Below the pieces are notes generated by a model that worked only from the letters and a program-made list of their open reading frames with translations, had not been told where the DNA came from and searched no databases. A program made the position numbers and the translations under genes. A DNA stretch of 62,128 nucleotides, counting the filler, from Pirum gemmata (Eukaryota): NCBI GenBank assembly GCA_002812295.1. It is 15 parts of 15 records of this genome, joined end to end, with 100 filler letters (N's around TTAATTAATTAA, not from the genome) between each part and the next. Parts side by side here need not be neighbours in the genome. Positions count along the whole stretch, not along the records: positions 28,555 to 32,516 come from PDIN01001631.1; 14 more parts are not named here. One strand, 5' to 3'. Shown here one piece after another: positions 7,229-56,630 of the stretch. The first letter of the stretch is position 1. The number at the start of each line of letters is the position of its first letter.

Positions 7229-7500
7229 AGACCCTAACCCTCTAACCCTAACCCTAACCCTAACCCTAACCCTAACCCTAACCCTAACCCTAACCCTAAC
7301 CCTAACCCTAACCCTAACCCTAACCCTAACCCTAACCCNNNNNNNNNNNNNNNNNNNNNNNNNNNNNCTAACCCTAACCCTAACCCTAACCCTAACCCTA
7401 ACCCTAACCCTAACCCTAACCCTAACCCAGACCCTCAGAGCCCAGACTCTAACCCTAACCCTAACCCTAACCCTAACCCAGACCCTAACCCTAACCCCTA
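7229..7500 (+). repeat. Interstitial telomeric (CCCTAA)n array with internal gap
   Basis: Direct reading; shorter degenerate array at 6480-6545. Confidence 0.95.
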
Positions 7501-24005: not shown

Positions 24006-24651
24006 AAAATTACTGTTACTAGTCTATTACTAATTTACTATTTATTACTACTATGACATTGCAGTAGAGTACTAGTACAGTAGAGGTGAGATATCTACTG
24101 GAACTTTTTTCGAACAGATACTTATCGAACCAACCTTAGTTCCGTGTTCCTTACTAATAATAGCTGTTAAATAGCTTAAAATAGTAAATCTAATTATAGT
24201 AGGTACTAATTAAAGTAATAATATTAACATTAATAGTAATAAAAACAATAAAATCGGAAAAGTTTCGGCAGCTATTCGGTAATAATAAAATGACGTCATC
24301 TCACCCCTACTACTACGGGTCCTACACTTAAGACGACGACAATGGCGACTAAAACATTATTTATTGTGTGCTTTTCATTTATTTTGTCACTCCAAATATT
24401 TATTTGGTTGGTTATGATATTTAAATTGACTCTTTTAAATGAATAAATAAATAATAAAATATACCAAATTAAATGAAATGGACTTATATTGTATTAATTT
24501 GGTACTCTTTTTTGTATATTNNNNNNNNNNNNNNNNNNNNNNNNNNNNNNNNNNNNNNNNNNNNTTAATTAATTAANNNNNNNNNNNNNNNNNNNNNNNN
24601 NNNNNNNNNNNNNNNNNNNNAAACAAAAACAAAAACAAAAACAAAAACAAA

Positions 24652-24707
24652 ACCCTAACCCTAACCCTAACCCTAACCCTAACCCTAACCCTAACCCTAA
24701 CCCTAAC
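24652..24707 (+). repeat. (CCCTAA)n array followed by gapped (TTG/TTTG)n microsatellite to ~25245
   Basis: Direct reading. Confidence 0.9.
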
Positions 24708-25597
24708 TCACACATTGCCTTGAACCAGCTCTTGAACCCCTTTTTGTAAACAAACGAAAATTAGAAATGTGGTTGCTTTTTATTGAAAAGTTTGGTATTG
24801 TTTGTGGATTCTATTATTTTAAAAGTTTTGTTGTTTGTTTGTTTTTGTTTGTTGTTTGTTTGTTTGTTTTGTTTGTTTGTTTGTTGTTTGTTGTTTGTTG
24901 TTTGTTGTTTGTTGTTTGTTGTTTGTTGTTGTTGTTTGTTGTTNNNNNNNNNNNNNNNNNNNNNNNNNNNNNNNNNNNNNNNNNNNNNNNNNNNNNNNNN
25001 NNNNNNNNNNNNNNNNNNNNNNNNNNNNNNNNNNNNNNNNNNNNNNNNNNNNNNNNNNNNNNNNNNNNNNNNNNNNNNNNNNNNNNNNNNNNNNNNNNNN
25101 NNNNNNNNNNNNNNNNNNNNNNNNNNNNNNNNNNNNNNNTGTTGTTTGTTGTTTGTTGTTTGTTGTTTGTTGTTTGTTGTTTGCTGTTTGTTGTTTGTTG
25201 TTTGTTGTTTGTTGTTTGTTGTTTGTTGTTGTTGTTTGTTGCTGTTGTGATACTCGGTATCATACCTATGGACTCCTTTGGTAACTACTATCTAGTAACT
25301 ACTATATATAGACTTTAGAAATTACTTACTACAGCAGCTAGCTAGACTACAGTAGCTACTAGTTAGCTAGCTAGAGGACCTTTAGAAAGACCTATAGCGT
25401 GCACTGCACAGTGCAGACTTGGTGCAGAGAGACAGTCAGAGACTGGTCTACCTCAAAAAGTCTGGCTTAGTAGTATCATACGAATCTGTACGATAACGAT
25501 AATATTTATTATAAATAGTAGAAATTAACCATTTTTACATTCATAAATACGATTTTTACAGTCTATATTAGAATATAAGCCAAAATGACGTCATCGA

Positions 25598-26130
25598 AAT
25601 TCTTAAATTTGCGGCCAATATTCTTAAATTTACGGGTGATATTCTTAAATTTGCGGCCAATATTCTTAAATTTGCGGCTGATATTCTTAAATTTGCCATC
25701 AATAGTCTTAAATTTGACCTTTTTTGGTATGTTTTTATCCATATTTGGTTATTTTGTACAATTTTTAGACTATTTTGGTTATTTATAGGTTATTTACAAC
25801 CATTCAACATACCAAATTAAGCGGTTTTTTAGGACAAATTAGGGTTGTGTTTTGTACCAGTCACTTGGATTAACATCATTCAAGGTTGCAATTAACCTTT
25901 CGGTGATTTTGATTGGCTAATAGTTAAAAAAATCACAATACCTTGTTGCAGATTAGTGACTTTAGGGTATAAGTGTCGTTATTATTTAAGAATATTAATA
26001 TTGAATTTAAGAATATTGAATATTGAAAATATTGAATTTAAGAATATTGAATATAATTAAGAATATTGAATATTGATAATATTGAAATTAAGAATATTGA
26101 ATATTGATAATGTTGAAATTAAGAATATTA
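25598..26130. repeat. Inverted arrays of AATATTCTTAAATT (21-bp period, 25598-25716) and AATTTAAGAATATT (25984-26130) around a unique core
   Basis: Direct reading. Confidence 0.75.
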
Positions 26131-26262
26131 AATTATTATTGTATTAATACTAATTACTACTAATTACTAATACTGATACTGATACTAATACTAATACTGA
26201 TACTGATACTAATACTAATACTAATACTAATACTAATACTAATACTAATACTGATACTAATA

Positions 26263-26510
26263 CTAATTACTACATGGTACGCATAATAAATAATAATAAT
26301 CAATACTAATATACTAATTACTAATACTAATTACTACATGGTACGCATAATAAATAATAATAATCAATACTAATACTAATTACTAATACTAATTACTACA
26401 TGGTACGCATAATAAATAATAATAATCAATACTAATACTAATTACTAATACTAATTACTACATGGTACGCAAAACAATACTACATGGCACGCATAATAAA
26501 TAATAATAAT
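26263..26510 (+). repeat. ~62-bp minisatellite with TACATGGTACGC core (5 cores)
   Basis: Cores at 26271, 26335, 26397, 26459, 26481. Confidence 0.85.
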
Positions 26511-26514
26511 AACA

Positions 26515-26697
26515 AAAAAGTCCGGGACTAATAATAATAATAATAATAATAAAAATAATAATAAAAAATATACTAAATCAAGTCTGTGATTTTTTTTATT
26601 ATTGTTAAAGTATTATCACTAAATCAAGTCTGTGATTTTTTTTTATTATTGTTAATAGTATTATCACTAAATCAAGTCCGGGACTTTTTTATATTAT

Positions 26698-26732
<35 letters not shown>

Positions 26733-26768
26733 TATACTAAATCAAGTCTGTGATTTTTTTTTATTAAT

Positions 26769-26815
<47 letters not shown>

Positions 26816-26850
26816 TATACTAAATCAAGTCCGGGACTTTTTTGTATTAT

Positions 26851-26885
<35 letters not shown>

Positions 26886-27428
26886 TATACTAAATCAAGT
26901 CCGGGACTTTTTTTATTAATGTAATAATAGTCTGTGATTTTTTTTTATTATTGTTAATAGTATTATCACTAAATCAAGTCCGGGACTTTTTTTTATTATG
27001 GATTAATAATATAATGATAATAATAAAAAATAAAAAATATAGCTTTTAAAAATTTATTTTTCGTTTGTGATTTGAAAATTATTAAAAACTGCACTTATAT
27101 TTTTAATATTTTATATCATAACACATATTTAACAACAATTATAATAATATTAATAACACCGATTAATACTAACAAAGCAAGTCAGTACTATATCAAATCC
27201 GGGACTTTTTTTTATTATGGATTAATAATATAATGATAATAATAAAAAATAAAAAATATAGCTTGTAAAAATTTATTTTTCGTTTGTGATTTGAAAATTA
27301 TTAAAAACTGCACTTATATTTTTAATATTTTATATCATAACACATATTTAACAACAATTATAATAATATTAACAACACCGATTAATAGTATTAATTCAAG
27401 TCAGTACTATATCAAATCCGGGACTTTT
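26515..27428 (+). repeat. Array of AAGTCCGGGACTT near-palindromes including a ~220-bp tandem duplication
   Basis: ~7 TCCGGGAC cores plus GTCTGTGATT variants. Confidence 0.85.
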
Positions 27429-27445
27429 AATAGCAATTCTTGTTT

Positions 27446-28300
27446 TCATTCTTTGACTTCAATATTATTAGTATCAATACTATAAACAATTTTTTCTTTA
27501 ATGTTTTTACTAGTGGTAACATTTAAATGATTGCATACAGATCGGATAAATTTTTGATAATGTTTATTGAAGTTTTTGATATAATCAAATAGGAAAACTT
27601 TTTGCGATTTCTGCGATGCCAATTTATCCTTCATGTATTGCAAAATTTTAATTAATTCATCTTTAAATTTTCTATCGTTCTTTTTGTTATCAATTACTTC
27701 ATTGAAATACTTAAAGTATACTGTTTTCTTTCTTTGATTGATAACAACAAACGCTTGTAAAAAGTCCGTATCACCCCTCTCATATGTATTAACGATTCGC
27801 CAGATAGTTAGTTCCGTACCAGATCTACAGAAATGATTTACTAGATGCGTAAACTTTTCAATATATTTGGTATTGTCTTCGATATTACTTAATTGTATAG
27901 TAATCGGTCTTGTATTTTTTAAATATGTTTGAACCGTATTCTTACATTGAAGTTCACATTTAAAAACGCTGACCGGTTGTGTGTTGTAGTTGGTAATATC
28001 GTTAGTAATAGTATTATTAATTACTATTTTGTCAGTATTTTCATTGATCATTTTTACCTCATATTTCAATTTAGTATTTTCTTCTGTCAGTTTTACCTGA
28101 TGTTTCAACATATTAATTTCTTCATCTTTTTTTTCAATTTCTTTATCTTTTTTTTCAATTTCTTTATCTTTTTTTTCAATTTCTTCATGGTGTTCTTCCT
28201 TCAATTTTTCAAATGCACATCTTGTCATTGTTGACAAATGTTTCCCTAAGTTTTGTTTATTGAAATCTTTCTTACAGTATTCACAAATAAATCTATTCAT
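27446..28300 (-). CDS. Zn-finger + coiled-coil + Asn-linker protein, giant-virus-like (probable ATG at 28300)
   Basis: MNRFICEYCKKDF...LGKH...C, EIEKKDK x3, KIVINNTITNDITN; intronless; viral affinity is inference. Confidence 0.6.
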   Translation of the reverse strand: MNRFICEYCKKDFNKQNLGKHLSTMTRCAFEKLKEEHHEEIEKKDKEIEKKDKEIEKKDEEINMLKHQVKLTEENTKLKYEVKMINENTDKIVINNTITNDITNYNTQPVSVFKCELQCKNTVQTYLKNTRPITIQLSNIEDNTKYIEKFTHLVNHFCRSGTELTIWRIVNTYERGDTDFLQAFVVINQRKKTVYFKYFNEVIDNKKNDRKFKDELIKILQYMKDKLASQKSQKVFLFDYIKNFNKHYQKFIRSVCNHLNVTTSKNIKEKIVYSIDTNNIEVKE

Positions 28301-28394
28301 TTTTATTTGTGAAGTAAGAAAGATTTCAATAAACAAAACTTATTTTTTTTTTTACTTAACTAAACTTATTTTTTTTTTTACTTTTTAACTAAAC

Positions 28395-28429
<35 letters not shown>

Positions 28430-28573
28430 TAAACTTTCTTTTTTTTTTTTTTTTNNNNNNNNNNNNNNNNNNNNNNNNNNNNNNNNNNNNNNNNNNNNTT
28501 AATTAATTAANNNNNNNNNNNNNNNNNNNNNNNNNNNNNNNNNNNNNNNNNNNNTAATAATAATAATAATAAT

Positions 28574-28878
28574 AAGATCGGAATTTAAACTGTACGTGGT
28601 ATGTTGTGTTGGTCACATTACAAGTTTAGACAACGCTTGGTAACCAAAAGCGAATTGTTTAGTGATTGTAAAGTGATTGAATGTGATAAGTCTTTTAAAC
28701 TTCAAAATGCTGTGGATATTGTGGTGTCATTAATAATAGACTTGGTGGTAGTAAAGTATTTATGTGTAAACAAAAGTTTAATGCCCGTGGCCGTGATATT
28801 CACGCTGCTCGAAATATTTTTTTACGTTATTTAACACGTAATAAAATAGTATTTCGAAATTCGGCTCGAATTCCCTAA
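28574..28878 (+). pseudogene. Fanzor/TnpB RNA-guided nuclease C-terminal relic
   Basis: KIGI*TVRGMLCWSHYKFRQRL...VIECDKSF / frameshift at 28697-28698 / TSKCCGYCG...LGGSKVFMC...RDIHAARNIFLR. Confidence 0.88.
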
Positions 28879-29010
28879 TGGTTCGAGTTTGCTACTTGGA
28901 GCCTGCAGAGATGACGATGTGCGTCCCTCTGTTGCAAATAACTTGTTATACTTGTACAAAATTTCTTATTGAAAATACAAGTTTTGATAGGGAATGCAAG
29001 TTTTAATCCA
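28864..29010 (+). ncRNA. Putative omega-RNA scaffold overlapping and following the Fanzor stop codon
   Basis: Three hairpins: 28864-28888, 28906-28931, 28950-28982; position typical of TnpB/Fanzor guide RNAs. Confidence 0.45.
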
Positions 29011-29659
29011 AGCGTAGAAAATAGTAGTAGGGGTGAGATGACGTCATTTTATTATTACCGAACAGCTGCCGGAACTTTTCTGATTTTTATGGTTTTTATT
29101 ACTATTAATGTTCATAATATTACTTTAATTGGTATCTACTATAATTAGATTTACTATTTAAGCTATTTAACTGCTATTATTAGTAAGGAACACGGAACTA
29201 AGGTTGGCTCGATAAGCATCTGTTCGAAACTAAAATAGTAGAAAGCAGACACACACTTTTTTTTTTTTTCTATGAATAAATGAGATCTCAGTACTTAGAC
29301 CTCATGATGCATAATAATATGATAAAGAGAAATTTTATTATATTTTATTTTTTTCACTATCATCCTGGATAGAAACGGCGAATCCCTCATATGAGCTCAA
29401 AAATCCAAAAAATCTCAAAATAATCCGATTTTAATGAAAGTACTAAACTAAGTACTAAAATTTTGAGAAATCTTCTAACTAAGAAAACTCTATTATGAAC
29501 CAAGGGTCAATTTTTAAAAAAATAAGTTGGCTAGTTAACATTAAAGATTTTTAGAAAAGAAGTCTAAAAAAAAATGATTGCTACAGTTTTATCCGGCCTG
29601 GCTGTGAAAAAAAAAAGTTCTGTTTTCTTTTATAAAAAAAAGGAAAAGCATTAAGTTAC

Positions 29660-29943: not shown

Positions 29944-30088
29944 GGGAGCGTTCAAATAATACGTCACGTCAAGAGATAGGTAGGTGGGTGGTATTTGACC
30001 GGAAATTAACGTCGAGGGGTAGGTAGGTAGGGGTATTTGAAGCTGTATTTGAATGGAAATTGGCGTTACGTAGTATTTGAACACTCCC
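29944..30088 (+). mobile_element. PIF/Harbinger-type MITE (family D) with TTA TSD; others at 22352-22481, 30877-31027, 31459-31587, 35993-36108, 44580-44695
   Basis: TTA|GGGAGCGTTCAAATAATACGT...ACGTAGTATTTGAACACTCCC|TTA. Confidence 0.85.
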
Positions 30089-32217
30089 TTATAACATTTT
30101 CAACCGAGTTCCTAGCTAGCTATTAGCTAGAGGACTGACTAGCTTTTTTGCAAAGGTACAATTTTTTTTACTCGGTTCTGGGAGGAGGGATGAGATGACG
30201 TCATTTTACTAATGGAAGGCTCTGGTACCAAAAGTTCGCCAAAATGAAATTTTTGTGATTAAAATTACTTTAAATAGTATAATAGTTACTATTAATAGAA
30301 GCTTCTAAAAATAGTAGCTACTATTTATAGCTATATAAATACTATTTATGGTAACTGCGAAGTGGCGAATAGCCTTCCACTTCACCCCTCGCCCTTNNNN
30401 NNNNNNNNNNNNNNNNNNNNNNNNNNNNNNNNNNNNNNNNNNNNNNNNNNNNNNNNNNNNNNNNNNNNNNNNNNNTTTTCATTTATTTTGTCACTCCGAA
30501 TATTTATTTGGTTGTTTATAATATTTAAATTGATATTTTTAAATAAATAAATAAATAATAAAATATACCAAATTAAATGCAATGGATATATATTGTATTA
30601 ATTTGGTACTATTTATTGTATATTTTATGACGACAAAATAACTGAAAAGCACGATAATGGCCAAGGAATTATTACACATTCGGATGTAGAACTGCAACCT
30701 CGTTTTTTTGCTTTTTTTTTTTGTTGTCCTCGGGCGTACGCATGGTCAAGAAAGTGTAAAAAAAAAGGAAATTATTTTGATAAAAATAGTAGCTAGCTCT
30801 CGCTTTCTACGATATGATAAAAACTACTCTTGAAAGAGTCCCTTGAAAAGCCTTGAAAAGTTCTACTATATTAATTGGGAGCGTTCAAGTAATACGTCAC
30901 GTCAAGGGGTAGGTAGGTAGGTAGGCGGTATTTGAAGGGGAAATTAACGTCAAGGAGAAGGTAGGTAGGGGGTATTTGAAGCTGTATTTGACCACAAATT
31001 GGCGTTACATAGAATTTGATTGCTCCTGACTCCTGAGTCCCTATAACCCTTTCTACAACCAACCCACCGCCTGGTTTCAAGTTTTTTTTTTTTTTTCATA
31101 TCGAAGTGATAGTATAATATCATAGCATTTCAAGAAAATTAGGGTACGGCAAAAATTGAAAATTTGACTTAAATTACTATAAAAAGTTAACTTATAACCA
31201 TTAATAGTAATACTTAATATAGTAAACTACTATTTTAAGGTTATAAATATCTATTTTAAGTAATAATTTTTTGCCATCTCAATTCCTTTTGTAACCTATC
31301 TCCAAATTTCTGCCAAAGGGGATGTCATCCCTCCTGCCTCAATAGTGCCTCAATGTGAAAATGTACTGAAAATGTTTTCTTGAATTTCTAAAAGGGCTGT
31401 CTCTCTCTAGCTAGCTATCGATAGTCTAGCTAGCTAGAGCTACTAGCTAGCTAGCTAGAGAGCGTTCAAATACAGTTGAAACCAGTCAAATACAGCTTCA
31501 AATAGTCTTCAAATACCCCTACCTAGACGTTAATTTCTGGTCAAATACCACCTACCTACCTACCCCTTGACGTGACGTATGCTCCCCTAACTGCTCCCCA
31601 ATAAATTTATCATAATTATTATAGTAAATTTATGATATGATAATGTGATAGCTCCTAGCTACTAGCTAGCTAGCTATGATAGAGTTATGAACTTATGATA
31701 GCTAGCTAGCTGAGCTGGTATCATAATAATATCATACCTCCTTCACTGCAGCACTAGCTAACTAGCTAGTGTCTATTTGTCAGTGCGTCCTCAATTTGAG
31801 GCCGAGGGCCATTTTTATAACAATTATTTTTATTATTATTATTATTGAAATAAAAAGTATATCAATAATATATCAAAATAATAGGAAATTGCAGTGAAAT
31901 TGCACTGAAATTGCTATAGTATTGCTATGTGTCTGCCATACCATACTTGTGTCATATTAATTAAACATTGATGCTCACTTTTTAACTTACGAAATAAATT
32001 TTGCTGTATGATAGTGTCTTGTAGACTTCTTCTTGTAGGATCTACGATAAAACTTTTTTTTTTTTATGGTTAGAGGCCTCATGAAATACTAACAAATAGA
32101 CACTAGCTAGCTACTTGAGAAGCACTTGAGATTTGCTCCTCCAGACTCTATCTCGAATTGAAAAGAATTATAGATATGAGAACAAAAAAAGAACAATGGA
32201 CTAAAATAAAAGAATTA

Positions 32218-32429
32218 TCATGTAAGTCCTTCTGGAATTGGTATATCATATCTTTTACTTAATTCTTTTATTTTAGTCCACTGCTCTTTTTTTGTTCTCA
32301 TATCTATAATTCTTTTCAATTCTATATTATAAAGATAATCCATATGTGTAATAGGTGGCAAGGCCAATACTATCATTGCAGGTCTCTCTTTATCAATGTT
32401 GGCCTTTCCTTGGGAAAAATTCAAATGAC
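32218..32429 (-). CDS. Probable terminal exon of an unknown protein, partly duplicated in inverted orientation
   Basis: AATAG acceptor after (TAA)n; open frame GHLNFSQGKANIDKERPAMIVLALPP...PEGLT*. Confidence 0.5.
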
Positions 32430-34832
32430 CTATTATTGTTATCATTATTACTATTATTACTATTATTATTATTATTATTATTAATTATTATTATTATTAT
32501 TATTACTATTATTATTNNNNNNNNNNNNNNNNNNNNNNNNNNNNNNNNNNNNNNNNNNNNTTAATTAATTAANNNNNNNNNNNNNNNNNNNNNNNNNNNN
32601 NNNNNNNNNNNNNNNNACAAAGAAGGGGGCAGATACTGTTATGTATAAGTTGCGTCCACCATATCATATCATAATAAAAAAAAAACTTCAAGATAAGAAC
32701 AAGAACCCACTTCTACCTAGCTACTAGCTAGTAGTAGACTGCTAGCCACTACTACTAGCTAGCTAGCTAGTTGAGTAGTAGGTCTAGGCCGTCTAGCTAG
32801 CTCTAGCTAGCAGTGAGAGAACACTGAGAGAACCCCAGCCAGGGTTCTAGCCAGGGTTCTTGAAATATGATATATAAATAAGGAAAACATCTTCTGTAGC
32901 TAGCTAGAGGGAAATAACTACTAGCTAGTAGTAGCTACCAGGAAAATAATTTTTTTTTATTAAAATATGATATTATGATAATATGATAAGAAAAAAAAAG
33001 TTAGCACTACTGTAGCTACTACTGTGCCTACCTAGCCTAGCTAGCTAGCTAGCTCTAGCTAGTAGCAGTTGTCTACTCTGGTTTTCTACTACTAGCTAGA
33101 GTCTATCATAGTATCATAGCTAGGTAGTCTAGCTAGCCCCTACTTTGTTTAGCAGACTCAGGCTGGTATTATATTTCCATATTAAGTGTTTTTATTCCCC
33201 AATATGGGGTGATATCAACATTACCTGCCATATATCATACCAAAAAAAAAAAAATGGATTCATCTCTTCTTGATACGTCTATACTACTGATATATGGAAC
33301 CAGATTTGGGTCTTTCCAAACTTTTTCATAGGGTTTTTCAAGTGTTTTAAAAAAAAAATTTTCATCAGTGTTTTTCATTATTTCATAGTCTATATCGATT
33401 TAGAAAAAAAAAAAGTGCTAGTATAGTTACTATAGTAGTATAGTAGTATATTATTTTTTAAAAAAATTATGATATTATACTATAGTATAGTATCATGTTT
33501 TATTAGTATTTTATTGTAGATATTTTATAATGGCATTAAATTTTTATATAGTATAAAATTTAATATTATATATATGATACATACATCATAATAACTATCA
33601 TAATGATGTATTATTGACCAATATTCCAAGGAGTTCTTGTGAACAATTTTTGAACTGCTTGGCACTCAGCTGCCAGGCAGACCTTATCCCAAGTTATCCA
33701 GGGCAGATAGATAAGTTTATCGATACTACTGACTACCCAGTAGGCTAATATTAGGGAGGTCAGAAGTGTCTAATAAAGCTCTACTACTACTAGCTACTAG
33801 CTAGTATCGATTGTATTGTGCTTTTCATTTATTTTGTCACTCCGAATATTTATTTGGCAGTTTATAATATATAAATTGATACTTTTAAATTAATAAATAT
33901 ATAATAAAATATACCGAATTAAATGCAATGACGACAAAATAACTGAAAAGCACGATAAAGCTCTAATATTAAAGCTACTAGAGAGCAGAATAATTAGCAG
34001 AATAATTATGATATCAGCAGAATTGCAATTTACAAGGAGTTCAAGACCCAGAAATCCCAGAATTGTCCCTGAGGAGTGAGGAATTGTCATCTATATCTTG
34101 AGATAATCTACTATAGAATAGCTAGCTAGCTACACTGCTACTAGGCTAGCTAGTATTGATACTAGCTAGCTAGACATTTGGAACATTCATTCATTCATAT
34201 TCATTCATTCATTAATAACGTCATCATAAAACATTGCAGACCCTCCCCACTTTCTGACCACATCTGATGAAATTACTAGGCTTTCAGATTGCAATCTAAG
34301 CCATTAAAATGGAAATCTCGAAAAAGGATATTTCGAAAAGTGACGTCATTAATTAATGTTCCCAGACTGGATTCTCTGGATTCTGGACTAGCTAGCTAGC
34401 TAGAGAGTACTGAGTAGGGGTGAGATGACGTCATTTTATTATTACCGAACAGCTGTCGGAACTTTTCCGATTTTATGTTTTATTACTATTAATGTTAATT
34501 TTATTACTTTAATTGGTAACTATTATAATTATATTTACTATTTTAAGATATTTAACTGCTATTATTAGTAAGAAACAGGGACAAAGGTTGGCTCGATAAG
34601 CATATATTCGAAAAAAGTTCCAGTAGATATCTGTATCTCACCCTTACTGAGTACTGTTATATACTACTAGGTAGCTAGCTAGATGTAGCTAGCTAGCTAT
34701 CGATAACTCTCAAGCTCTAGTAGCTAGCTATCTAGTAGAGAGCTAACTGTAGTCTAGCTAACTAGCTACTAGCTATCGATAACTAGCAGCTACTAGTATA
34801 GTAGAGCCACTGTAGAAATCGATAGTAAACTG

Positions 34833-35725: not shown

Positions 35726-35958
35726 CAGTAGGGGTGAGATGACGTTATTTTATTATTACCGAACAGTTGCCGGAACTTTTCCGATTTTTATGGTTTTATT
35801 AATATTGATGTAAATATTATTACTTTAATTGGTATCTACTATATTAGATTTACTATTTTAAGCTATTTAACTACTATTTTTAGTAAGAAACACGGAACTA
35901 AGGTTGGCTCGATAAGCATCTGTTCGAAAAAGTTCCAGTAGATATCTCACCCCTACTG
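35726..35958 (+). mobile_element. Tc1/mariner/pogo-like MITE family B (~230 bp); others at 24078-24312 (-), 29026-29230, 34413-34649, 40586-40721 (-), 44095-44338, 55792-56020
   Basis: TIR CAGTAGGGGTGAGAT...ATCTCACCCCTACTG, TA flank on intact ends; copies highly similar. Confidence 0.88.
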
Positions 35959-38580: not shown

Positions 38581-39359
38581 TTATGCAACATGTGGAATTA
38601 TCAAGGGGGTTGGAATATTATTATTTTTTATTCCATTTTATTTTTCTTTTTGTTTGTTTGGGGCTTATTTGGGGCAGAAAAAGGAATCGGATAAAATTCA
38701 AGAAAATGAAAATCAATTTTGAATAATTGAAATAATGGAGTGTAACTGACAACTAATACTTATTATTTTTATTAGTTTTAAAATTAAAATAGAAATAAGA
38801 ATAGTTACAAGAGCTACAGTTTCACAAGCTACTACGACACAAGATACTGCTAGTCACGAGCGAATGAAGAAGTCTCACAAGCTAGTAAACGGGTCTAACC
38901 CTAACCCTAACCCTAACCCTAACCTTAATCGAGCAAAATTTACTAGCCACGAGCTAGCAATATCAACTAATGCAATAATAGTATAAATTATATTAGAATA
39001 TTATTGATAATAATTTTATAACAAAAAAGTTTTGGAATATTATCTGTAACGACTTAAACTAATCCAATGTCAATACATGTTATTTTAATTAAGATATTAT
39101 ATATATTATATAGAAGCACAAGATTGAGAGAATAAAAGAAAAGACAGGATAAAATCCTGAATAACAGGAACAATTAATTAACAATTTAGGAATATAATGC
39201 TACCGTACCATTGGATTATAAAATATAGATGAATAAATCATAAAATTCATTTCACACTTTGTATGTTTTTTTACTTTTATTTATATTTATTTCACAGAAA
39301 CTTTCTTTCTTATAATAAGAAAATTATCATATAATTGATTTAAAAGAGGGTTATAGCCA

Positions 39360-40007: not shown

Positions 40008-41322
40008 CTTGTTTAAATTTGTGCTTTTTTTTTTTTTTGCGATTAAAAAATATTATTTTGTAAATTATATTACTATTATATTTTTTCAGTTATTATTGTG
40101 ATTATTATGTTTTTATTTTTATTTTATTTTTAATTATTTTTGTTTTTCACTCTAGTTTATATACTATTATTTTTTTAAAAAAAATTATAATATTGGGATG
40201 AAAGCCTCTGTAAGACCCTATAATAAGTCAATTATTATATAATATTATTATGATTATATTTAGAGTTATGATAGTATTTACAGTGTATTAGTCTTTATGT
40301 GCTTTTCTTTTATTTAGGTCACCCTGAACATTTGTTTGGTAGGGTATAATATTTAAATTGGTATTTGGTATATTTAAATAAATAAATAGATAATCAAGTG
40401 TAGCAAATTAAATTAAATGGATTTATATTGTATTAATTTGGTAGTTTTTAGTAGTATATTTTATGATGACCAAAACAACTTAAAAGCACCAGTCTCATTT
40501 GTCTATATAGTCTAAATCTTTATTGTGATAAGAAAAAACTTGGCATTGGTCAAGTATTTCAAAAGAAAACTTTAGCTAGCTTAGTAGTAGGGGTGAGATA
40601 TCTACTGGAACTTTATTCGAACATATGCTTATCAAGCCAACCTTGGTTCCGTGTTTCTTACTAATAATAGCAGTTAAATGGCTTAAAATAGTAAATCTAA
40701 TTATAATAGATACCAATTAAANNNNNNNNNNNNNNNNNNNNNNNNNNNNNNNNNNNNNNNNNNNNTTAATTAATTAANNNNNNNNNNNNNNNNNNNNNNN
40801 NNNNNNNNNNNNNNNNNNNNNCTTACAGGGAGATATGGGAAAACATAATCGAATCAAACAACTCGATCCTAATTATTAAACAGTGACAATTTTGAATTGA
40901 TTTTCTTTTTTTTTCGAGTTTCAAGTTCTGTCTATGAATTTCTAACATGAAATCAAAAGTGAGTCAATATTTAAAATTAGATCGAAAAATTTCGAAAGTT
41001 TCGATCTAGTCTCGATTCGATGGTTTTTCCCTCATTTCCTAGTTTCGATTTCAAAATGAAAAAATGATAAAAAAAGTAATAAATACCTCTTTAAAACTGA
41101 TTTTTGTATTTAGGTGCTAAATAGTTATAGGGGTTAGGAGTAGGGTTAGTATTGTTCAGTGTGTATTAATATAATATTATGTTTTAAATATTATTTTTTA
41201 ATAACAATATTAGGGAAACCAGTTAGGAAGGAAGTATTTTAGTATTTGCTCAATTTTTTTTTAAAAAAAAACATTTATTAAAAATAAAATGTATTAATAT
41301 TAGAAAATAAGTTATCAAAATT

Positions 41323-43455: not shown

Positions 43456-45969
43456 TTTTTAATTAAAAAAATATTTTATTTTTATATCTTTTCAAAAATA
43501 ATGTATAATAATAATTATAAATGAATGAATTATATTATATACAAGTATATTACAAAAGTGCCAGTATTCGTACAATTTTACGCTTTTGTCGCATAAAGTA
43601 AAGATAAATTAATGGTATTAATTAATTAATGAATTAATATTAATAATGATAATGGTAATGGTAATGGTAATGGTAATGGTATACGTAATGGTAATGATAA
43701 TGGTAATGGTAACGGTAATGGTATTGGTAATGATAATGATAATGGTAATGGTAATGGTAATGATAATGGTAATGGTAATGGTACCGGTGATGGTGATGGT
43801 AATTTTAGTAATTGGAAATGATAACAGTAAGTTTAATTTTTTAAAAAATATATAAAATTACATTCACAGTAAAAAAAAAAGAAAAGTAAAAATATGAATA
43901 GAATTAAAAAAATATATATCATATACATAAAACAATTAAAAGCAAAATTTTGTGTTGATTTTTTCTGTGCTTGTTTTTATTTTGATTTTTTATTTTTTAT
44001 TTTTTATTTTTATATTATTATCATAGTATTATGATAATTATTACGGTAACAAAACAATCTATCACTATTATTTTTAAAAAAAATACCTAAAATTCAGTAG
44101 GGGTGAGATGACGTCATTTTATTATTACCGAACAGCTGCCGGAACTTTTCCGATTTTTATGATTCTATTACTATTAATGTTAATATTATAACTTTAATTG
44201 GTATCTACTATAATTAGATTTACTAATTTAAGCTATTTAACTGCTATTATTAGTAAGAAACACGGAACTAAGGTTGGCTCGATAAGAATATGTTCGAAAA
44301 AAGTTCCAGTAGATATCAGCTTAGATATCTCACCCCTAGCCCAAATTCCAGGATGGATGTTTTTAAAAAATACACTAAAAATACTTTAGGAGGAGTTTAG
44401 GAGGCCTAAATCTAGTCTAAATTCGAGCCTAAATTATAGGTCGAATAGTGGTCGAATCTAGCAGATCGAATTTTTACTGGTTCAAAGCACCACTGAGCTT
44501 TTTACTGAGCTTTTTACTGGCTCAAAACACAAAAGCTAACAAAGCAAACTCGAAGTAAACTCGAGCAAACTCGAGCAAAGGGAGTGTTCAAATAATACGT
44601 CACGTCAAGGGGAAGGTAGGTAGGTGGTGTTTGACTGGAAATCAAACGTCGAGGGGTAGGTAGGTAGGGGTATTTGAAGCTGTATTTATCGTTCCTAGAC
44701 TATAGTCTAGTGTCTACTAGACTCTGGACCCCCGCACCTCTACACTATCATGATAAATCCCGCCGGCACCATATATGGTAAAACATGTTACAAGTTTCTT
44801 TTTTTGGTTATAATACTTACATAAATAGGTATANNNNNNNNNNNNNNNNNNNNNNNNNNNNNNNNNNNNNNNNNNNNTTAATTAATTAANNNNNNNNNNN
44901 NNNNNNNNNNNNNNNNNNNNNNNNNNNNNNNNNTAATAATAAATCAATAACGATGGCTACCAGCAGAAGATAATTTAGACCTATCTCTAGCTAGCTAGTA
45001 TAATTTATGAAGCATAGAAAAATTATAGAAAAGAATTTTTTTTTTAATTTTTTATACTTTTTTATCATAATAGTCTCTACCGAAACAGAAAAAAAATATC
45101 ATAAAAATAAATATGAGGCTATAGTAAGCAAAGTACTCAAAGTAATTATATTATTGTGGATTAATTTTTAAAAATATACTGTATATATAATATATATAGT
45201 AATGTATAATTATATATCTGATACCGGTATTTATCGTTCATTTTTTATGTTGTAGTAAAATAAGAATAGTAATTATAAATTATAAATTATTATTCGTCTA
45301 AATGGATATATGATAGTAATTATTTATAAAAATTAATTGCAATAGTAATATTATTAATTATATATATAATTAATTATTATAATTTAAATTTATACATTAT
45401 AATTAATTATAATTTTTTATAAAATTTAATAGTATTAATAATTAATTGTACATGTGCATACATGTGTTAGTAACCATAATGGTAATAATAATAATAATAA
45501 TATTAATACTATAACATTGGAATAATAGTAGTACTAGTACTAGTACTATCATAGTATAATTTGTAATAGTATTACAGTAACTTAATTTATATATAATTAT
45601 ATTTATCGCACGAAGTGTCAATATAATATTTTAAAAGTAAAACAAATAAAAAATAAAATTATTTTTGTTCAAATAAATATTTTATAAATTAAATTTTATA
45701 TCTTCAATTTTATTTTTATTTTTTAGTAGAGGAACTTCTGTATCATAGTAGCCTATACACTACTAATACTAGCTTGCTAGCTAGCTAGAGGACCAGAGGT
45801 AGACTAACTGGTAGACTCTATTTTTATTATGGTAAACATTCTAGCTATTATGTCAGTACTAATAATGATAGATTAGCTACAGCAGCTACTAGCTAGCTAG
45901 AGGTCCAGTTATTACAGATAAATAGGACAAATACCAAGACAAAGGGGTCAAATCCCAAGAAGAGGGCAA

Positions 45970-48030: not shown

Positions 48031-51000
48031 TGTTTAAAAATCGACAAATTATTATTATTATTAATTAATTTTATTATTATTGATTATTTTTATTATTAGT
48101 AATTATTTATATTATTAATTATTTTTATTATTATTAATTATTTTTATTATTATTAATTATTTTCATTATTATTAATTATTTTTATTTTTATTAATTATTT
48201 TTATTTTAGTTTAATTGTTATTAATCGATTATTAAATTATTATTATTGATTGATTATTGGGTTTGAGTCTGAGTTTCGGTTTTAGTTTTGGTTTTTAGTT
48301 TTTAGTTTTAGTTTGGGTTTGGGTTTGGGTTTTGGTTTTGGTTTTGGTTTTGGTTTTGGTTGTGGTTTTGGTTTTGGTTGTGGTTTTGGTTGTGATTGTG
48401 GTTTTGGTTTTGGTTTTGGTTTTGGCTTTGGTTTTGGTTTTGGTTTTGGTTTTGGTTTTGGTTATTAATAAAGGATAATACTGGTATGCAAAATATAACG
48501 ATATTAATGATAATGTTATTGATATTAATAATGATGTTGATATTGATAACTATATAGATATTGACACAAGGATAATGATACTATCCAAAACATAACGGTA
48601 TTAATAATGATAATGCTATTGATATTAAAAATGATGTTGACATTGGTATTGATATTGATATTGATATTGATATTGATATGGATATGGATATTGATGATAT
48701 TGATATTGATATTGATATGGATATTGACAAAGATGATAATACAAAATTTGGTTTTGGTTGCTTTGGTTGGTTAGGCTGTTTAAGTTGTTTTGTGCTTATA
48801 TATTACCAATCTCTTCTTTTTTTTCATATAAGAAAGTAGTATCGTAATAAGCAAAAATAGGTTTAGATTTTGCTAACATATAACCCATCTCAAAACTAGC
48901 ACCTACATCCATACTGGGACCTGGTTTCCGATAGAAAAACATTGTTAATTATAAAGAATAATAGGAATTTGAACATAATTATATTGTACGTATTATTTGG
49001 TCTATTANNNNNNNNNNNNNNNNNNNNNNNNNNNNNNNNNNNNNNNNNNNNTTAATTAATTAANNNNNNNNNNNNNNNNNNNNNNNNNNNNNNNNNNNNN
49101 NNNNNNNTGTTGTTGAGGCAAACTCGCGCAAACCAAGAAGCAAGAGGGAAACATTCTTCGCAAATGGTGGCTCGTTTGACTGCCAAAAAAAAGTCAATCG
49201 TAAAACAAAAAAAAAAAAAAAAAATGGGAACAAGGGGGTCAAATACCCCCCATTAGACCCCAATTTAAACCCGATCAAATGTAAAATACCCTTTTAAAAT
49301 TATACCCCCGAATTCCCCTTTTTGAAGGAAAGATAACACTGAGAGCGTTGGTTAAGTGTTGGCTACTATTCTAGCTAGCAAGGAGTATTAATAGGAAGTA
49401 GTGGTATTAGGGTTTAAAAATTATGGCCAGGGTTCTGTGACCCTGTTAGGGTTAGAGTAATGATTTTGGATAGAGTTAATTAAGGGTTAGGGTTAGGGTT
49501 AGGGCATGAAGCATGGTTAGAGTTGGGGTTAGAGAGCTGGTTAGAGTTAGAGTTAGAGTTTTAGAGTTAAGGTCAGAGTTAAGGCTAGGGTAGATCTGTT
49601 AGGGTTAGGGTTAGGGCTAGGGTTAGGGTTAGGATTTTAAGGTCAGGGTTAGGGTGCTGTTTCGTGTGTTCAATATTTATCCATTAATTTATTCATTAAA
49701 ATTTATTCATTAAAATTCTTTCATTAATTAAGATTTATTCACTATTTATTCATTAATTTATAAAATGTTATTCGTTAAATTTTTATTAAAAAATTTTTGT
49801 TTATTTATTTATATATGATAACCAAGGACTTCAAAAAAAAAACTTTTTTAAAGTCCTTGTGATATTATTGATATTATTAAAAAAATAGCTGAAAAAAGTT
49901 CTGAACAAAGTGAACTAAATGGAGAAAAAGCTATGATTGCTGGAGGGAGAAAAAGTAGTGAAAAAGCAGCTGAAAATTTAAAAGTAGTGAAAAAGTATTG
50001 AAAAGGTGCAGGAAAATAGCTAGGAAAATAGCCAGGAAAAAGTTAGGAAAATCAGTAAAATAAACAAATAAAGATATATGAGGCCTAAATAAGGCCACTT
50101 TGGCCGTGAAAAAAATGCTTCTTCCTGAAGTTCCAACTTCCGCTTCTAACTTTCAACCGGGGGAAAAAAACACTTTCAGCCAGACCAACTCCTGCTTCAA
50201 ACAACAGTCCAACTCCTCTTTCTAACTATATACAAGACTCTTGTTATTTATAATATTATGATAGCTAGCTAGTAGATATCTGCTGCCTACACCTTACGCG
50301 TATAAGTGTAAATATCTACTATTGTAGTTAATAATTTTAAACGGATACAATTTGAACATGATTATAATTTTATTAAAATGCCATATTAAAATCGAAGGGA
50401 TACAGACATGAGTCCTACCACGGTCACAAAGTAGTATCGTGATTTTCAGTTGTATAAATCCATTTCATTCAATTTTGTATATTTTATTAGAAAAATGTCG
50501 ACTTATTATTATAACCAACCAAATAAATATTCAGAGTGACAAAATAAATGAAAAGCACAATAGTAGTCTTGGATGAGCTATAGACCCCCCCCCCTCCCCC
50601 TCCTCTGGATATTATAATGACACCCTATGATACTACTATCTGATACTGCTAGTCCCGGGTCTAACTAGCTAGGGTTGGTCTAGCTAGATCTATGAGCCCT
50701 ACAAAATATGTAGTTAAACTATCTACCCCTAACCCTAACCCTAACCCTAACCCTAACCCTAACCCTAACCTAGTGTTATTAATTAACTATTATGATATTA
50801 ATTATAATGGTAGAAGAGTGTAGAAGTCTTATTTTTCAGAATTTAGCAGGGCTGCTACAGTGCTGCTACTAGCTAGATCGTGTTTTTCGATAGTGTTGTA
50901 CAGTTCAAAAACTGAAATAATATTATACCAAATATTAATTATTATTATGGTTGAACTATATCAGACATAGTTTAATTAATTTGGCATTTTATAATTAAAA

Positions 51001-52679: not shown

Positions 52680-53325
52680 TATTATTAATATTATATTATC
52701 AGATATTATCATGATGCTTTTCAGTTGTTTTGTCATTATAAAATATTCAATAAAGAGTACCAAATTAATATCATATAAATCCATTTTATTTAATTTGGTA
52801 TATTTTATAATCTAATTATTAATTTAAAAATATCAATTTAAATATTATAACCAACCAAATAAATATATATTGGTAGTAATAGACCCAGGGCCTACTAGCT
52901 AGTAGTAGCTAGCTAGCTAGCTAGTCTAGTAGTATTGATAGACTAGACTAGTATACGTAGTGCAGGATAGTAGTGTAAAGAGCTGTAAAGTGCAGGTGTA
53001 GTAGTACCTGGTGTACCCTGAGATAGTCTACCGATAGTCTACTCTAGACTAGGACTTAAGGAGTTCTTGAAAGAAAAAAAAAAAGTTGAAATCATACTGA
53101 TTATTATTATTATTATTANNNNNNNNNNNNNNNNNNNNNNNNNNNNNNNNNNNNNNNNNNNNTTAATTAATTAANNNNNNNNNNNNNNNNNNNNNNNNNN
53201 NNNNNNNNNNNNNNNNNNATAATAATAATAATAATAATAATAACACTTAACAAAGCAATAGCAAAAACCACACGGTATTATTAATACCAATACAATAACA
53301 ACAACAAACAAAAAAAGTAATAACA

Positions 53326-53779
53326 ATGTCAGTAATGGATTTATTAGAAAAGCGTCGTTTACGACAGTTGAGTTTAAATAACACTTCCACTTACAAGCAA
53401 ACTTACAGTTCGTTGTTCTTTTTTGTAATTATGGGACAACTTATGTATTATTGTGTGTTCGTGAACCCTCCTGGCCAAACTGCTTTAAATAGTCCCGAAG
53501 ACAACCCTTTAATCAATCCTCACTTTTACGAAAGTGAATTGAAATATCAACAATTACATAACAACAATAACAACGACTTTAATAATATACAAGACAATAA
53601 TGATAATGACCTTAATCTTAATGATGATTTAGTTGATGAAGGTATAGAGGAGTTTGGTATTGCTAAGCCTAAATATATATTATACCGTGCAATTGGTAAT
53701 GATTTACCTCCTAGGCACGCCGTAGGACAATGTTATGATAATGTTAAATTTATTCTGGAGAACGAAAAACCTTTAGAAG
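53326..53779 (+). CDS. First exon of a type II membrane, possibly glycosyltransferase-like protein
   Basis: N-terminal TM, stem, then YILYRAIGNDLPPRH..GQ...NV.FILENE block; GAAG|GTATTG donor. Confidence 0.7.
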
Positions 53780-53784
53780 GTATT

Positions 53785-54140
53785 GACCCTAACCCTAACC
53801 CTAACCCTAACCCTAACCGTAGCCGTAACCGTAACCCTCACCCTAACCTTAACCCTGGCCTTGGCGCTAACCCTCACCCTAACCTTAACCCTGACCTTGA
53901 CCCTAACCTTGACCCTGACCTTGACCCTAACCTTGTCCCTGACCTTGTCCCTAACCTTGCCCCTAACCTTGACTTTAACCTTAACCTTANCTAACCCTAA
54001 CCCTAACCCTAACCCTAACCCTAACCCTAACCCTAACCCTAACCCTAACCCTAACCCTAACCCTAACCCTAACCCTAACCCTAACCCTATTCCTAACTAG
54101 AACTATAACTATAACCCTAACACTAACTATAACCCTAAAC
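53785..54140 (+). repeat. (CCCTAA)n and variant hexamers at the start of the intron; other short arrays at 20361-20390, 38897-38925, 49483-49635, 50727-50772
   Basis: Direct reading. Confidence 0.9.
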
Positions 54141-54188
54141 TATAACGATAACCACGACAAGTTTGTAATTGAACGAAATAGAGTTTAA

Positions 54189-55110
54189 TGTGTGAACGAA
54201 AAAATTTTTAATAATAAGTTTGATGGATTTTGTACTTATTGGTCAGCGTTGATGGTTTTAGCTCGAATACTAAACCCAAACCTTTTAATAACTCAAGTTC
54301 AATATAAGCTAAAGGAATACTTACAAGATTATAGAACTGAAAAATTATTAGAATTATTTAAAAAAATAGGTTACATTGTTTCTTTAAGACTAAAAAATTC
54401 ATCGACATATAAAAAAAGTCAAAATATTTTGTTTTGTGAATCACAAGAAGAAAAAATTATAAAAAAAATGAAAAATATTTTAAAAAAATATGATAGTACC
54501 AATAATAAAAAAAATGTTAAAATTAAGTGTGAAAAATACTTATCAGGTGTTGGAACATTTCAAATGAAAAATTAAAATAAAATTTTATTAAGATATCTGG
54601 AAAAATATAATAAATTTACAATATCACAATTAAATAATCGTTGTCTTTTTAAATTTTTCACTTCAATTATTATAAATAGTAAAGACGATAAATTTTATTT
54701 TGTATCAAAATCAAAATCAAAATCAAAATCAAAATCAATATTTTATTTAACTTTTAATAATAATTATGATATACCAATTGAATTTTTTGAAAATATTCAA
54801 AGAATAAAATGGTATAATAATACAATTACCTGTTTTGGAAAAAAGACCTTCAACAGCATCATCTTCAACAACAGCATCATCTTCAACAACAGCATCATCT
54901 TCAACAACAGCATCATCTTCAACAACAGCAGAATCACCACCTTTAATAACAACAACACCAGAAACAACAGCAACAACAATAGAAAAAAAGGCAGAAAAGA
55001 AAGAAGAAAAAAAGGCAGAAAAGAAAGAATTTAATGATTTATTCTTTTGGCATTATCTGAGAAATAATATACAAGAACCAAGATATAGTTATCGTTTTCT
55101 TTATATGTAA
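54189..55110 (+). pseudogene. Disrupted virus-like ORF with a GFC..WS motif (putative cysteine-protease fragment)
   Basis: DGFCTYWSALMVLARILNP; same frame reopens after TAA 54573-54575 to 55034; 18-bp x4 repeat at ~54850-54930. Confidence 0.4.
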
Positions 55111-55141
55111 GTTCGAATAGTAATATTAAATAAATAATAAA

Positions 55142-55600
55142 TTATGCCAAAAATGGTTCAAATTGCAATGCTAATGGAGTACGAACAGGTGCCGCAATAC
55201 CAAACAAACGTACAATTCCATCACCAGCACACACAGTGGAGTCTAATTCAGAATCAGTACCTTGGAAACAAATTTTAGCTTTGTTCCAATTATCAGCCCC
55301 ATACACACTACCACTCATGTCAATATTAATGTCGGTTAGTTTTTGTATACCGGGAACTTGATACGGTTTACCGATAAAGGCACCCGTTCTTCGTTTTCCC
55401 GCTGGGCAATATTGGACATTTGTACCACACAACTGATGTATGGAAGAGCCACTGAAATCAGCAACCCAAACCATATCATTTCCATCTACAGCAATACCCC
55501 AAGGACCGTCCATATTTTTATGATGAAATTGATTAAGAAAAGTTCCATTTGGTGCATACAAAAAGACACTTCTACCTCCGAAAGAAGCCACCCAAGCATA
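55142..55600 (-). CDS. C-terminal part of a bacterial-like NHL-repeat beta-propeller (last exon or truncated gene)
   Basis: AWVASFG...GPWGIAVDGNDMVWVADF...LCG...CP.G...IDMSGSVYGADNW...STVCAGDG...FGIAAPVRTP. Confidence 0.75.
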   Translation of the reverse strand, partial: YAWVASFGGRSVFLYAPNGTFLNQFHHKNMDGPWGIAVDGNDMVWVADFSGSSIHQLCGTNVQYCPAGKRRTGAFIGKPYQVPGIQKLTDINIDMSGSVYGADNWNKAKICFQGTDSELDSTVCAGDGIVRLFGIAAPVRTPLALQFEPFLA

Positions 55601-56527: not shown

Positions 56528-56630
56528 TAACCCTAAAACTTGGACAAGTTAATTAGTAAGCATTTTTGGATTTTTGTCTGAGAAAAATTTCGGGCCCGAC
56601 CGACCAAATGCCCAGAACTTGGGCCAGAAG

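What the first reader, a model, noticed from the sequence alone, without database searches (positions are those of the whole stretch)
28574..28878. Fanzor (eukaryotic TnpB) relic hidden by a frameshift
The ORF track shows only half. Joining frames gives MLCWSHYKFRQRL, the RuvC-II position (E appears as K in DKSF), the TSKCCGYCG zinc ribbon, LGGSKVF and RuvC-III RDIHAARNI. An in-frame stop, a frameshift and a lost Cys show this copy is dead. It suggests the lineage hosted an RNA-guided nuclease family that may have intact copies elsewhere.
Basis: partly seen in the sequence, partly recalled or inferred. Interest (0 to 1): 0.7.

Follow-up and report, generated by a model that had tools for sequence, protein, structure and literature searches.

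The report
Dead Fanzor2 transposon copy in ichthyosporean
This is the broken tail of a gene for a Fanzor2 enzyme (the RNA-guided DNA cutter of some jumping genes), followed by its likely guide-RNA scaffold; this copy is dead, but pieces of related copies without these defects occur in DNA filed under the same organism, likely a single-celled relative of animals in which I found no published Fanzor.

Summary
Confirmed and extended. 28574-28878 is the last ~100 codons of a Fanzor2-type TnpB gene in two frames (clade profile: 53 and 74 bits apart, 149 joined with X; best of 200 shuffles 1.9). It carries four lesions: a stop (28586), catalytic Glu to Lys (28688), a +2 frameshift (28694-28698) and a five-codon deletion that removes the fourth zinc Cys (after 28773). 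The 5' ~80% is missing; the contig starts 19 nt upstream, behind an assembly linker. The clade matches mimivirus Fanzor2 (9B0L) end to end, not Fanzor1, and sits apart from cyanobacterial pro-Fanzors. It aligns with the 3' end of an intact IS607/Fanzor2 element, with a 6-bp closing helix showing two compensatory changes (two sequences), and read depth drops at 29015. Runs of the same organism hold many related copies; separate pieces lack each lesion, but no intact gene was seen. The host is likely an ichthyosporean. New member of a known kind; modest interest.

The parts
28455..28554 (.). Artificial contig linker (N44-TTAATTAATTAA-N44); the relic's contig is 28555-32516
   Evidence: 14 identical linkers join ~4-kb pieces
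28555..28575 (+). (TAA)n microsatellite at the contig start, abutting the relic; true truncation or contig end cannot be told apart
   Evidence: sequence
28574..28696 (+). Relic piece A: end of RuvC/bridge region through RuvC-II; corresponds to about residues 503-545 of the closest full-length relative P0161 (606 aa), 70% identical
   Evidence: 53 bits
28586..28588 (+). In-frame TAA; paralog contigs in three runs have a Lys codon here
   Evidence: loose ends, translated by hand
28688..28690 (+). Lys at the rearranged RuvC-II catalytic position (six residues before the first CxxC); Glu in 115 of 120 relatives that match the C4 pattern
   Evidence: PMC10711439 passages
28694..28698 (+). Frameshift: five bases where relatives have one codon (net +2)
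   Evidence: paralog with an unbroken frame in run X2
28699..28878 (+). Relic piece B: TS motif, zinc ribbon (three of four Cys), RuvC-III Arg-Asp at 28792-28797, stop at 28876
   Evidence: 74 bits
28773..28774 (+). In-frame loss of five codons, including the fourth zinc-ribbon Cys (exact breakpoints approximate)
   Evidence: X1 loose end behind 28773; X3 contig spans the site without those bases
28879..29014 (+). Likely omegaRNA scaffold: closing helix around two hairpins; colinear with the 3' end of element L018 (66 of 134 columns identical, one internal 3-nt gap)
28895..29012 (+). 6-bp long-range helix, 28895-28900 with 29007-29012; all 6 pairs kept in L018, 2 by changes on both sides, 1 by a one-sided change
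   Evidence: two sequences only
29014..29015 (+). Likely right end of the element; bases beyond it would supply the guide
   Evidence: X1 summed depth 60,254 in 29000-29015 against 813 in 29016-29020; similarity to L018 ends here
29026..29229 (+). Unrelated host high-copy ~204-nt repeat starting about 11 nt past the right end; five more full copies and one half copy in the window

Best explanation
This is a dead 3' fragment of a Fanzor2 nuclease gene with its likely omegaRNA scaffold and likely right end, one decayed copy of a multi-copy family of probably IS607-type transposons in the genome of a likely ichthyosporean. Shown: the homology, the four lesions, the clade, the presence of related copies in runs of the same organism. 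Inferred from characterised relatives: in an intact element a serine recombinase (TnpA) would excise the element as a double-stranded circle and reseal the donor site without a scar. Fanzor2 would load an RNA made from the element's last ~150-200 nt plus ~15-20 nt of flank, cut the emptied site next to a short motif, and repair would copy the element back. This copy cannot do that: it has no RuvC-I half on the contig, a stop, no catalytic Glu, a frameshift and a broken zinc ribbon.
For: Profile scores 53 + 74 bits, 149 joined with X, best of 200 shuffles 1.9. Of 151 proteins examined, 120 match the C4 pattern and 115 of these have Glu six residues before CxxC; all 49 of 350 aa or more have it, and 48 of the 49 have DPG upstream. 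A profile of the 10 closest relatives hits ApmFz2 (9B0L) over its whole length at E 4.8e-35, ISDra2 TnpB entries at 4e-7, and no Fanzor1 entry among 18 hits at E<=10. In a 78-row tree the relic lies in a 7-row clade (99/98), within 22- and 32-row clades (99/95, 99/98) that exclude six cyanobacterial pro-Fanzor rows. Two members of the 32-row clade with DNA in hand carry an overlapping serine recombinase: L018 and L005/P0030, the latter beside a gene that reads as a giant-virus major capsid. The only metagenome locus found with frame A also has an IS607 TnpA. 31 of 47 distinct DPG+Glu loci have a TnpA within the fetched flank. omegaRNA: and the depth step at 29015. Multi-copy: two X1 contigs identical to this locus have depth 327 and 273, while family variants reach 20,275 over 2 contigs and 90,428 over 20. 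Host: a gene on contig 53219-58068 has its best relatives in ichthyosporean gene sets (Sphaeroforma arctica named), and that contig shares the 204-nt repeat with the relic's contig.
Against: No TnpA, DPG motif or left end is present in the window, so IS607 membership rests on relatives. Nearly all relatives are unnamed, and L018 is a 2.1-kb contig filed in a Hydrogenophaga bin, so the clade is not shown to be eukaryotic throughout. DPG plus shifted Glu also occurs in prokaryote and phage contigs (L009, L019, L021). The non-coding 137 nt alone fold at z -2.2, and 8 of 70 GC-matched window stretches fold lower. L018's alignment z (3.7, 0 of 150 shuffles) is only joint second among 71 loci, behind a short AT-rich match; under a laxer scoring two other loci scored higher. 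Covariation rests on two sequences, and the relic's first inner hairpin is not kept pair for pair in L018 (58% paired). Depth is not a copy count by the tool's own warning, and X1 may be the assembly's source. The tree's bootstrap had not settled (0.947) and the relic fills 46% of columns.
Confidence: 0.86

Rival explanations
1. The copy is a remnant of an endogenised giant virus that carried a Fanzor2 element, not a transposon that spread in host DNA. As a route of entry for the family this is compatible with the best explanation.
For: Close relatives sit in giant-virus contigs (L005). The neighbouring contig has an intronless zinc-finger ORF whose nearest Atlas clusters are 99-100% viral, commonest Nucleocytoviricota, score 0.95 but recognition below the tool's bar. 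Giant-virus endogenisation is reported for the ichthyosporean Amoebidium (PMC11244446 passages).
Against: That ORF is on another contig. The relic's own 3.96-kb contig has no ORF of 100 aa or more with a start codon and holds host repeats. Several diverged subfamilies at high depth point to spread in the host. The same paper found no reliable giant-virus insertions in six other ichthyosporean assemblies.
Confidence: 0.1
2. The protein part is dead but the RNA part still works: the copy is a non-autonomous element whose omegaRNA is loaded in trans by intact Fanzor2 from elsewhere.
For: The closing helix is intact, and no variant is listed at 28895-28900 or 28969-29015 in any of 4 runs (differences near contig ends are filtered). 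Family depth over the RNA part is similar to that over the coding part. Extra fRNA-like copies are reported in Chlamydomonas (PMC10530073 passage).
Against: The stretch 28850-28878, where an upstream hairpin could lie, departs from the abundant family (X1 depth ~3,200 against 39,000-92,000 on either side). The would-be guide now runs into an inserted host repeat. No promoter or transcript is shown.
Confidence: 0.12
3. It is a prokaryotic TnpB or cyanobacterial pro-Fanzor on a contaminant contig.
For: Cyanobacterial pro-Fanzors share DPG and the shifted Glu and are the nearest Atlas clusters for P0161. One clade member is filed in a bacterial bin.
Against: The tree separates the relic's clade from the cyanobacterial rows. 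A pattern scan of 185,579 prokaryote genomes gave 4 loci, all on MAG contigs of 0.6-11 kb. The contig carries a host repeat shared with five other contigs of the window and a microsatellite.
Confidence: 0.03
4. The frameshift is an assembly error at a contig edge, and the copy is less damaged than it looks.
For: No listed contig identical to the window bridges 28695 with 31 or more bases on both sides. The site is 140 nt from a contig end.
Against: A marine-metagenome contig (X3, depth 4) runs 28682-28871 with no gap at the shift, though with only about 13 nt on the short side. The stop, the Lys and the deletion would leave the copy dead anyway.
Confidence: 0.05

Closest known systems
ApmFz2 / ApmFNuc, Acanthamoeba polyphaga mimivirus L79 (Fanzor2, PDB 9B0L; PMC11832414 passages)
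   Same: Best solved match for the relic's clade over the whole length (E 4.8e-35). Same rearranged triad register (Asp324, Glu467, Asp501; Glu just before the zinc finger). omegaRNA between the ORF's 3' end and the right end, with pairing that reaches the last bases of the scaffold.
   Different: This copy is a broken 100-codon fragment in a cellular genome. Its closest relatives have a C-x4-C second zinc knuckle (invariant Cys568 and Cys573 in alignment A2). The ApmFz2 pseudoknot could not be tested; the predicted helix here is a nested closing stem.
Fanzor2 of IS607-like elements (Bao and Jurka 2013, PMC3627910 passages; Yoon et al. 2023, PMC10711439 passages and supplement search), e.g. 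Naegleria lovaniensis and Mercenaria Fanzor2
   Same: TS-x-x-zinc finger-RD motif; Glu six residues before CxxC; relatives with DPG and a serine recombinase; multiple decaying copies. A Naegleria row in the Yoon supplement shows the same run of motifs by eye.
   Different: No ichthyosporean name was found in that supplement (control names were found). No TnpA or left end was seen for this family.
Cyanobacterial pro-Fanzors (Gloeotrichia, Aetokthonos, Rhizonema proteins)
   Same: DPG and shifted Glu.
   Different: Separate, fully supported branch in the tree; prokaryotic hosts.
Fanzor1 (e.g. SpuFz1, PDB 8GKH as named in PMC11832414)
   Same: Shifted RuvC-II Glu and RNA-guided RuvC nuclease ancestry.
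   Different: No Fanzor1 entry among 18 PDB hits at E<=10. Relatives travel with serine recombinases, not DDE or Helitron transposases.

Membership tests
Fanzor2 lineage (membership by descent) | C-terminal TS motif, zinc ribbon and RuvC-III RD in TnpB/Fanzor order | tested here: met
   decayed, three of four Cys left
Fanzor2 lineage (membership by descent) | RuvC-II Glu register six residues before the first CxxC | tested here: met
   The aligned position is occupied by Lys in this copy, by Glu in 115 of 120 relatives and in a paralog piece of run X8
Fanzor2 lineage (membership by descent) | Groups with Fanzor2, apart from Fanzor1 and cyanobacterial pro-Fanzors | tested here: met
   no named Fanzor1 or Fanzor2 reference sequence was in the tree itself
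Fanzor2 lineage (membership by descent) | Resides in a eukaryote or its virus | tested here: met
   Host repeat shared with other contigs, one of which has a gene with ichthyosporean best relatives; indirect
Fanzor2 lineage (membership by descent) | RuvC-I DPG motif | tested here: inconclusive
   Region absent from the contig; present in 48 of 49 long relatives and in P0160 and P0161
Fanzor2 lineage (membership by descent) | Structured omegaRNA between the ORF's 3' end and the right end | tested here: inconclusive
   Colinear with L018, closing helix with two compensatory changes, depth step at 29015; fold alone modest; no RNA data
IS607-type element | Serine recombinase TnpA upstream of or overlapping the nuclease | tested here: inconclusive
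   None in the window, but the upstream part is beyond the contig end; present in L003, L005, L018 and in 31 of 47 DPG+Glu loci
IS607-type element | No terminal inverted repeats or target duplication; two-base core at the junction | not testable with these tools
   Left end and empty sites unavailable; no genome held
Active Fanzor2 nuclease (function of this copy) | Intact ORF with D-E-D triad and C4 zinc ribbon | tested here: not met
   Stop, Glu to Lys, frameshift, five-codon deletion, 5' part absent; not filed as an active nuclease
Fanzor1 | Profile similarity to solved Fanzor1 proteins | tested here: not met
   no Fanzor1 entry listed
Cyanobacterial pro-Fanzor / prokaryotic TnpB | Groups with prokaryotic sequences and lies in prokaryotic DNA | tested here: not met

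The most novel reading that the evidence does not exclude
An ichthyosporean, a single-celled relative of animals, carries in its own chromosomes a large Fanzor2/IS607 family of several subfamilies with intact, active members, from an undescribed clade with a C-x4-C zinc knuckle, probably delivered by giant viruses. That would give a native eukaryotic host in which to test whether Fanzor2 keeps its transposon in place by cutting emptied sites.
Probability: 0.35. Interest if true: 0.55.

Novelty: new member of a known kind. Interest (0 to 1): 0.33.

Why it matters
The locus is an ordinary dead transposon copy of a described class; Fanzor notes number 2,142 in this scan alone. Its value is as a pointer. 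It likely extends Fanzor2 to Ichthyosporea, for which my searches found no report. It marks a family that appears abundant in the host's own DNA. It gives a predicted omegaRNA boundary and right end that an experimenter could use with an intact paralog. If intact members exist, the role of Fanzor2 in its own eukaryotic host could be tested there; the passages I read describe activity only in reconstituted or heterologous systems.

Tried and rejected
No whole genome is held, so the assembly could not be searched for intact copies. The upstream zinc-finger ORF (27446-28339) was considered as cargo or viral context and rejected as unlinked. Piece B against viral contigs gave 2 chance loci, one read as phage structural genes. 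An exact 19-nt omegaRNA motif found 0 viral loci. A four-way alignment of 3' ends with L005 and L006 was uninformative. Raw alignment scores did not single out L018 among 71 loci; 16 of the 99 loci lacked my motif and 12 were duplicates, dropped before that count. Rfam gave 5 sub-threshold matches, none over the relic. Expression: no RNA holder listed; X8 is only guessed to be RNA and also holds the host repeat, so it is not used for or against expression. Piece A alone hit nothing in PDB, NCBIfam or PHROGs. Earlier-findings look-ups by place, sequence and relatives were empty. No structure or complex was predicted: a 100-residue broken fragment would add nothing. Literature negatives are limited: the supplement search of PMC10530073 is weak because control names were mostly absent, one file of PMC10432273 could not be read and no control was run, and subscription papers are not searched.

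Full report
Context. The window is a pseudo-scaffold of 15 pieces of about 4 kb joined by 14 identical N44-TTAATTAATTAA-N44 linkers. It is AT-rich and eukaryotic in content: ankyrin, Kelch and PAN proteins and Asn/Gln-run ORFs. The relic's contig is 28555-32516. It begins with a (TAA)n run and the relic starts 19 nt in. Nothing left of 28555 is physically linked. No whole genome is held.

Observation. Piece B gives 665 hits at E<=1e-3 among 1.84 billion representatives, PF07282 at E 1.5e-4, below the cut-off, and NCBIfam IS607_TnpB at E 0.0013. Piece A, not used to find those proteins, matches the best of them at 50-62% identity. A profile of 18 relatives scores the pieces at 53 and 74 bits in a six-frame scan, finds nothing else in the window above 3 bits, and gives 149 bits for the pieces joined with X, against a best of 1.9 in 200 shuffles. 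No TnpA was found in the window.

Lesions. (1) TAA at 28586. (2) Lys at 28688, the position six residues before the first CxxC, where Yoon et al. place the rearranged catalytic Glu (PMC10711439 passages). 115 of 120 relatives matching the C4 pattern, of 151 examined, have Glu there. (3) Five bases at 28694-28698 where relatives have one codon. (4) A five-residue gap after 28773 against the closest relatives, which removes the fourth Cys. The relic covers about residues 503-605 of P0161, a 606-aa intact protein 70% and 62% identical to the two pieces; RuvC-I is not on the contig. This copy cannot be a nuclease.

Which Fanzor. All 49 long relatives have the shifted Glu and 48 have DPG. A profile of the ten closest hits ApmFz2 (9B0L) over its length at E 4.8e-35, ISDra2 TnpB entries at 4e-7, and no Fanzor1 entry among 18 hits. 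In a tree of 78 rows (a chosen subset of the proteins and loci in hand; 212 columns; bootstrap not fully settled) the relic lies in a 7-row clade (99/98), nested in clades of 22 and 32 rows that exclude six cyanobacterial pro-Fanzor rows. The 'close' label was chosen by similarity, so only branch support counts. Relatives with DNA show the IS607 layout: L005 has a serine recombinase overlapping the Fanzor2 P0030, next to an ORF that I read as a giant-virus major capsid gene from recalled motifs. L018 and the broken L003 have TnpA too, and so do 31 of 47 distinct DPG+Glu loci. P0161 aligns with P0030 from its N-terminus, the part that overlaps TnpA in L005.

28800-29022 folds at z -4.78 (no genomic background run for that length). 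The non-coding 28879-29015 alone gives z -2.2, exceeded by 8 of 70 GC-matched stretches, so folding alone is weak evidence. It does align with the 3' end of L018 with one internal 3-nt gap and 66 of 134 columns identical. Both sequences fold independently into a closing helix around two hairpins. All six closing pairs hold in both, two through changes on both sides and one through a one-sided change (two sequences, structure derived from the relic). L018's alignment z is 3.7, joint second among 71 loci, and the only one of the four alignments printed that includes both strands of the closing helix. P0003 and P0006 read the same downstream bases as peptide in another frame, a sign of conservation at the DNA level. 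Family depth in run X1 falls from 60,254 to 813 across 29015/29016, and an X2 contig also ends at 29015. In ApmFz2 the guide RNA lies between the ORF's 3' end and the right end (PMC10530073 and PMC11832414 passages). I read 28879-29014 as the likely omegaRNA scaffold and 29014-29015 as the right end. A different, very abundant 204-nt repeat starts about 11 nt further on.

The family in the host. Three runs labelled organism A and one marine metagenome were laid (contigs only). In X1, 111 contigs were laid: 10 at 99% or more, 26 at 95-99%, 61 at 90-95%, 14 below. Two are identical to this locus, at depth 327 and 273; family variants reach about 10,000 per contig. The tool warns that depth is no copy number and that X1 may be the assembly's source; I infer at least tens of copies. 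Loose ends, translated by hand, show Lys in place of the stop in three different upstream variants (X1, X2, X8), Asp-Glu-Ser-Tyr-Thr at the catalytic site (X8), an unbroken frame across the shift (X2) and the fourth Cys (X1). X2 contigs extend about 250-410 nt upstream of 28587. These are separate pieces; no intact gene was seen. The X3 contig (depth 4) spans the deletion site without the missing bases and shows no gap at the frameshift, with only about 13 nt on the short side.

Host. A 49-residue piece on contig 53219-58068 gave 9 hits: the window's own protein, 3 unnamed, Sphaeroforma arctica by name, and four eukaryote gene-set entries, two with prefixes that I recall as ichthyosporean. That contig shares the 204-nt repeat with the relic's contig. 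The host is likely an ichthyosporean; I did not narrow it further.

Mechanism. For IS607 elements, TnpA moves a double-stranded circle and leaves a scarless donor joint (10.1101/2023.11.20.567912 passages). TnpB cutting of vacant sites drives transposon maintenance in bacteria (abstract start). Transfer of this to the present family is inference. This copy is a leftover; whether its RNA still works in trans is open (rival 2).

Prior art. No paper in the library holds 'Fanzor' or 'TnpB' together with 'ichthyospor'. None of the 25 listed of 84 papers matched by genus names mentions Fanzor. Six ichthyosporean name terms are absent from the text-held supplements of PMC10711439, PMC10530073 and PMC10432273; the control worked for the first, was weak for the second and was not run for the third, one file of which was unreadable. 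PMC3627910 and PMC11244446 were read as passages. Supplements and subscription papers that I could not see may list such hosts.

Verdict. A real, dead Fanzor2 relic with a likely omegaRNA and right end, marking a multi-copy family in a lineage with no report that I could find. New member of a known kind; interest 0.33.

Noticed in passing
window 27446-28339 (- strand), contig 24621-28454: Intronless ORF of about 280 aa with an N-terminal C2H2-like finger and a coiled repeat; nearest Atlas clusters are 99-100% viral, commonest Nucleocytoviricota (0.95, recognition below the bar). Followed by a nest of short repeats at 26500-27430 and a 219-nt tandem pair. Possible giant-virus-derived gene in the host.
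   Followed up: partly
run X2, laid on window 28587-28694: A 307-nt contig at depth 88 goes back from 28694 to 28587 with 169 other letters between, which fits a tandem repeat or circle of a 277-nt internal piece of the Fanzor2 ORF. A loose end in X8 appears to show the same junction. Possibly an amplified subfamily or a Fanzor-derived satellite.
   Followed up: no
window 29026-29229; also 24108-24315, 34413-34613, 35727-35929, 44096-44299, 55792-55992, 40616-40721: Very abundant ~204-nt host repeat, 91-95% identical copies, summed depth in the millions in X1. Most copies continue past 29229 into a shared tail that this copy lacks. Unclassified.
   Followed up: partly
window 29959-30017, 30880-31000 and 31485-31580: Related ~60-120-nt repeats in both orientations on the relic's contig, possibly ends of another DNA transposon.
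   Followed up: no
window 32150-32327: 68-nt inverted repeat, 94% complementary, 42-nt spacer; sub-threshold Rfam miRNA-hairpin match.
   Followed up: no
window 7232-7489, 24651-24707, 38899-38922, 50727-50768, 53787-54138: Arrays of the CCCTAA/TTAGGG telomere-type hexamer, several of them inside contigs.
   Followed up: no
window 53326-53994 (+): 5' piece of a gene whose relatives carry an alginate lyase domain; used here only to place the host.
   Followed up: partly
window 55145-55600 (-): NHL-repeat ORF piece that looks bacterial in style by eye; possible horizontal transfer.
   Followed up: no
L018 (2,116-nt contig filed in a Hydrogenophaga bin): Nearly complete GC-rich IS607/Fanzor2 element with intact 608-codon frame, TnpA and strongly folding 3' RNA (z -5.5); nests in the relic's wider clade and may be mis-binned.
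   Followed up: partly
L009, L019, L021: IS607-type elements in prokaryote or phage-like contigs with DPG and shifted Glu but no zinc-ribbon cysteines.
   Followed up: no
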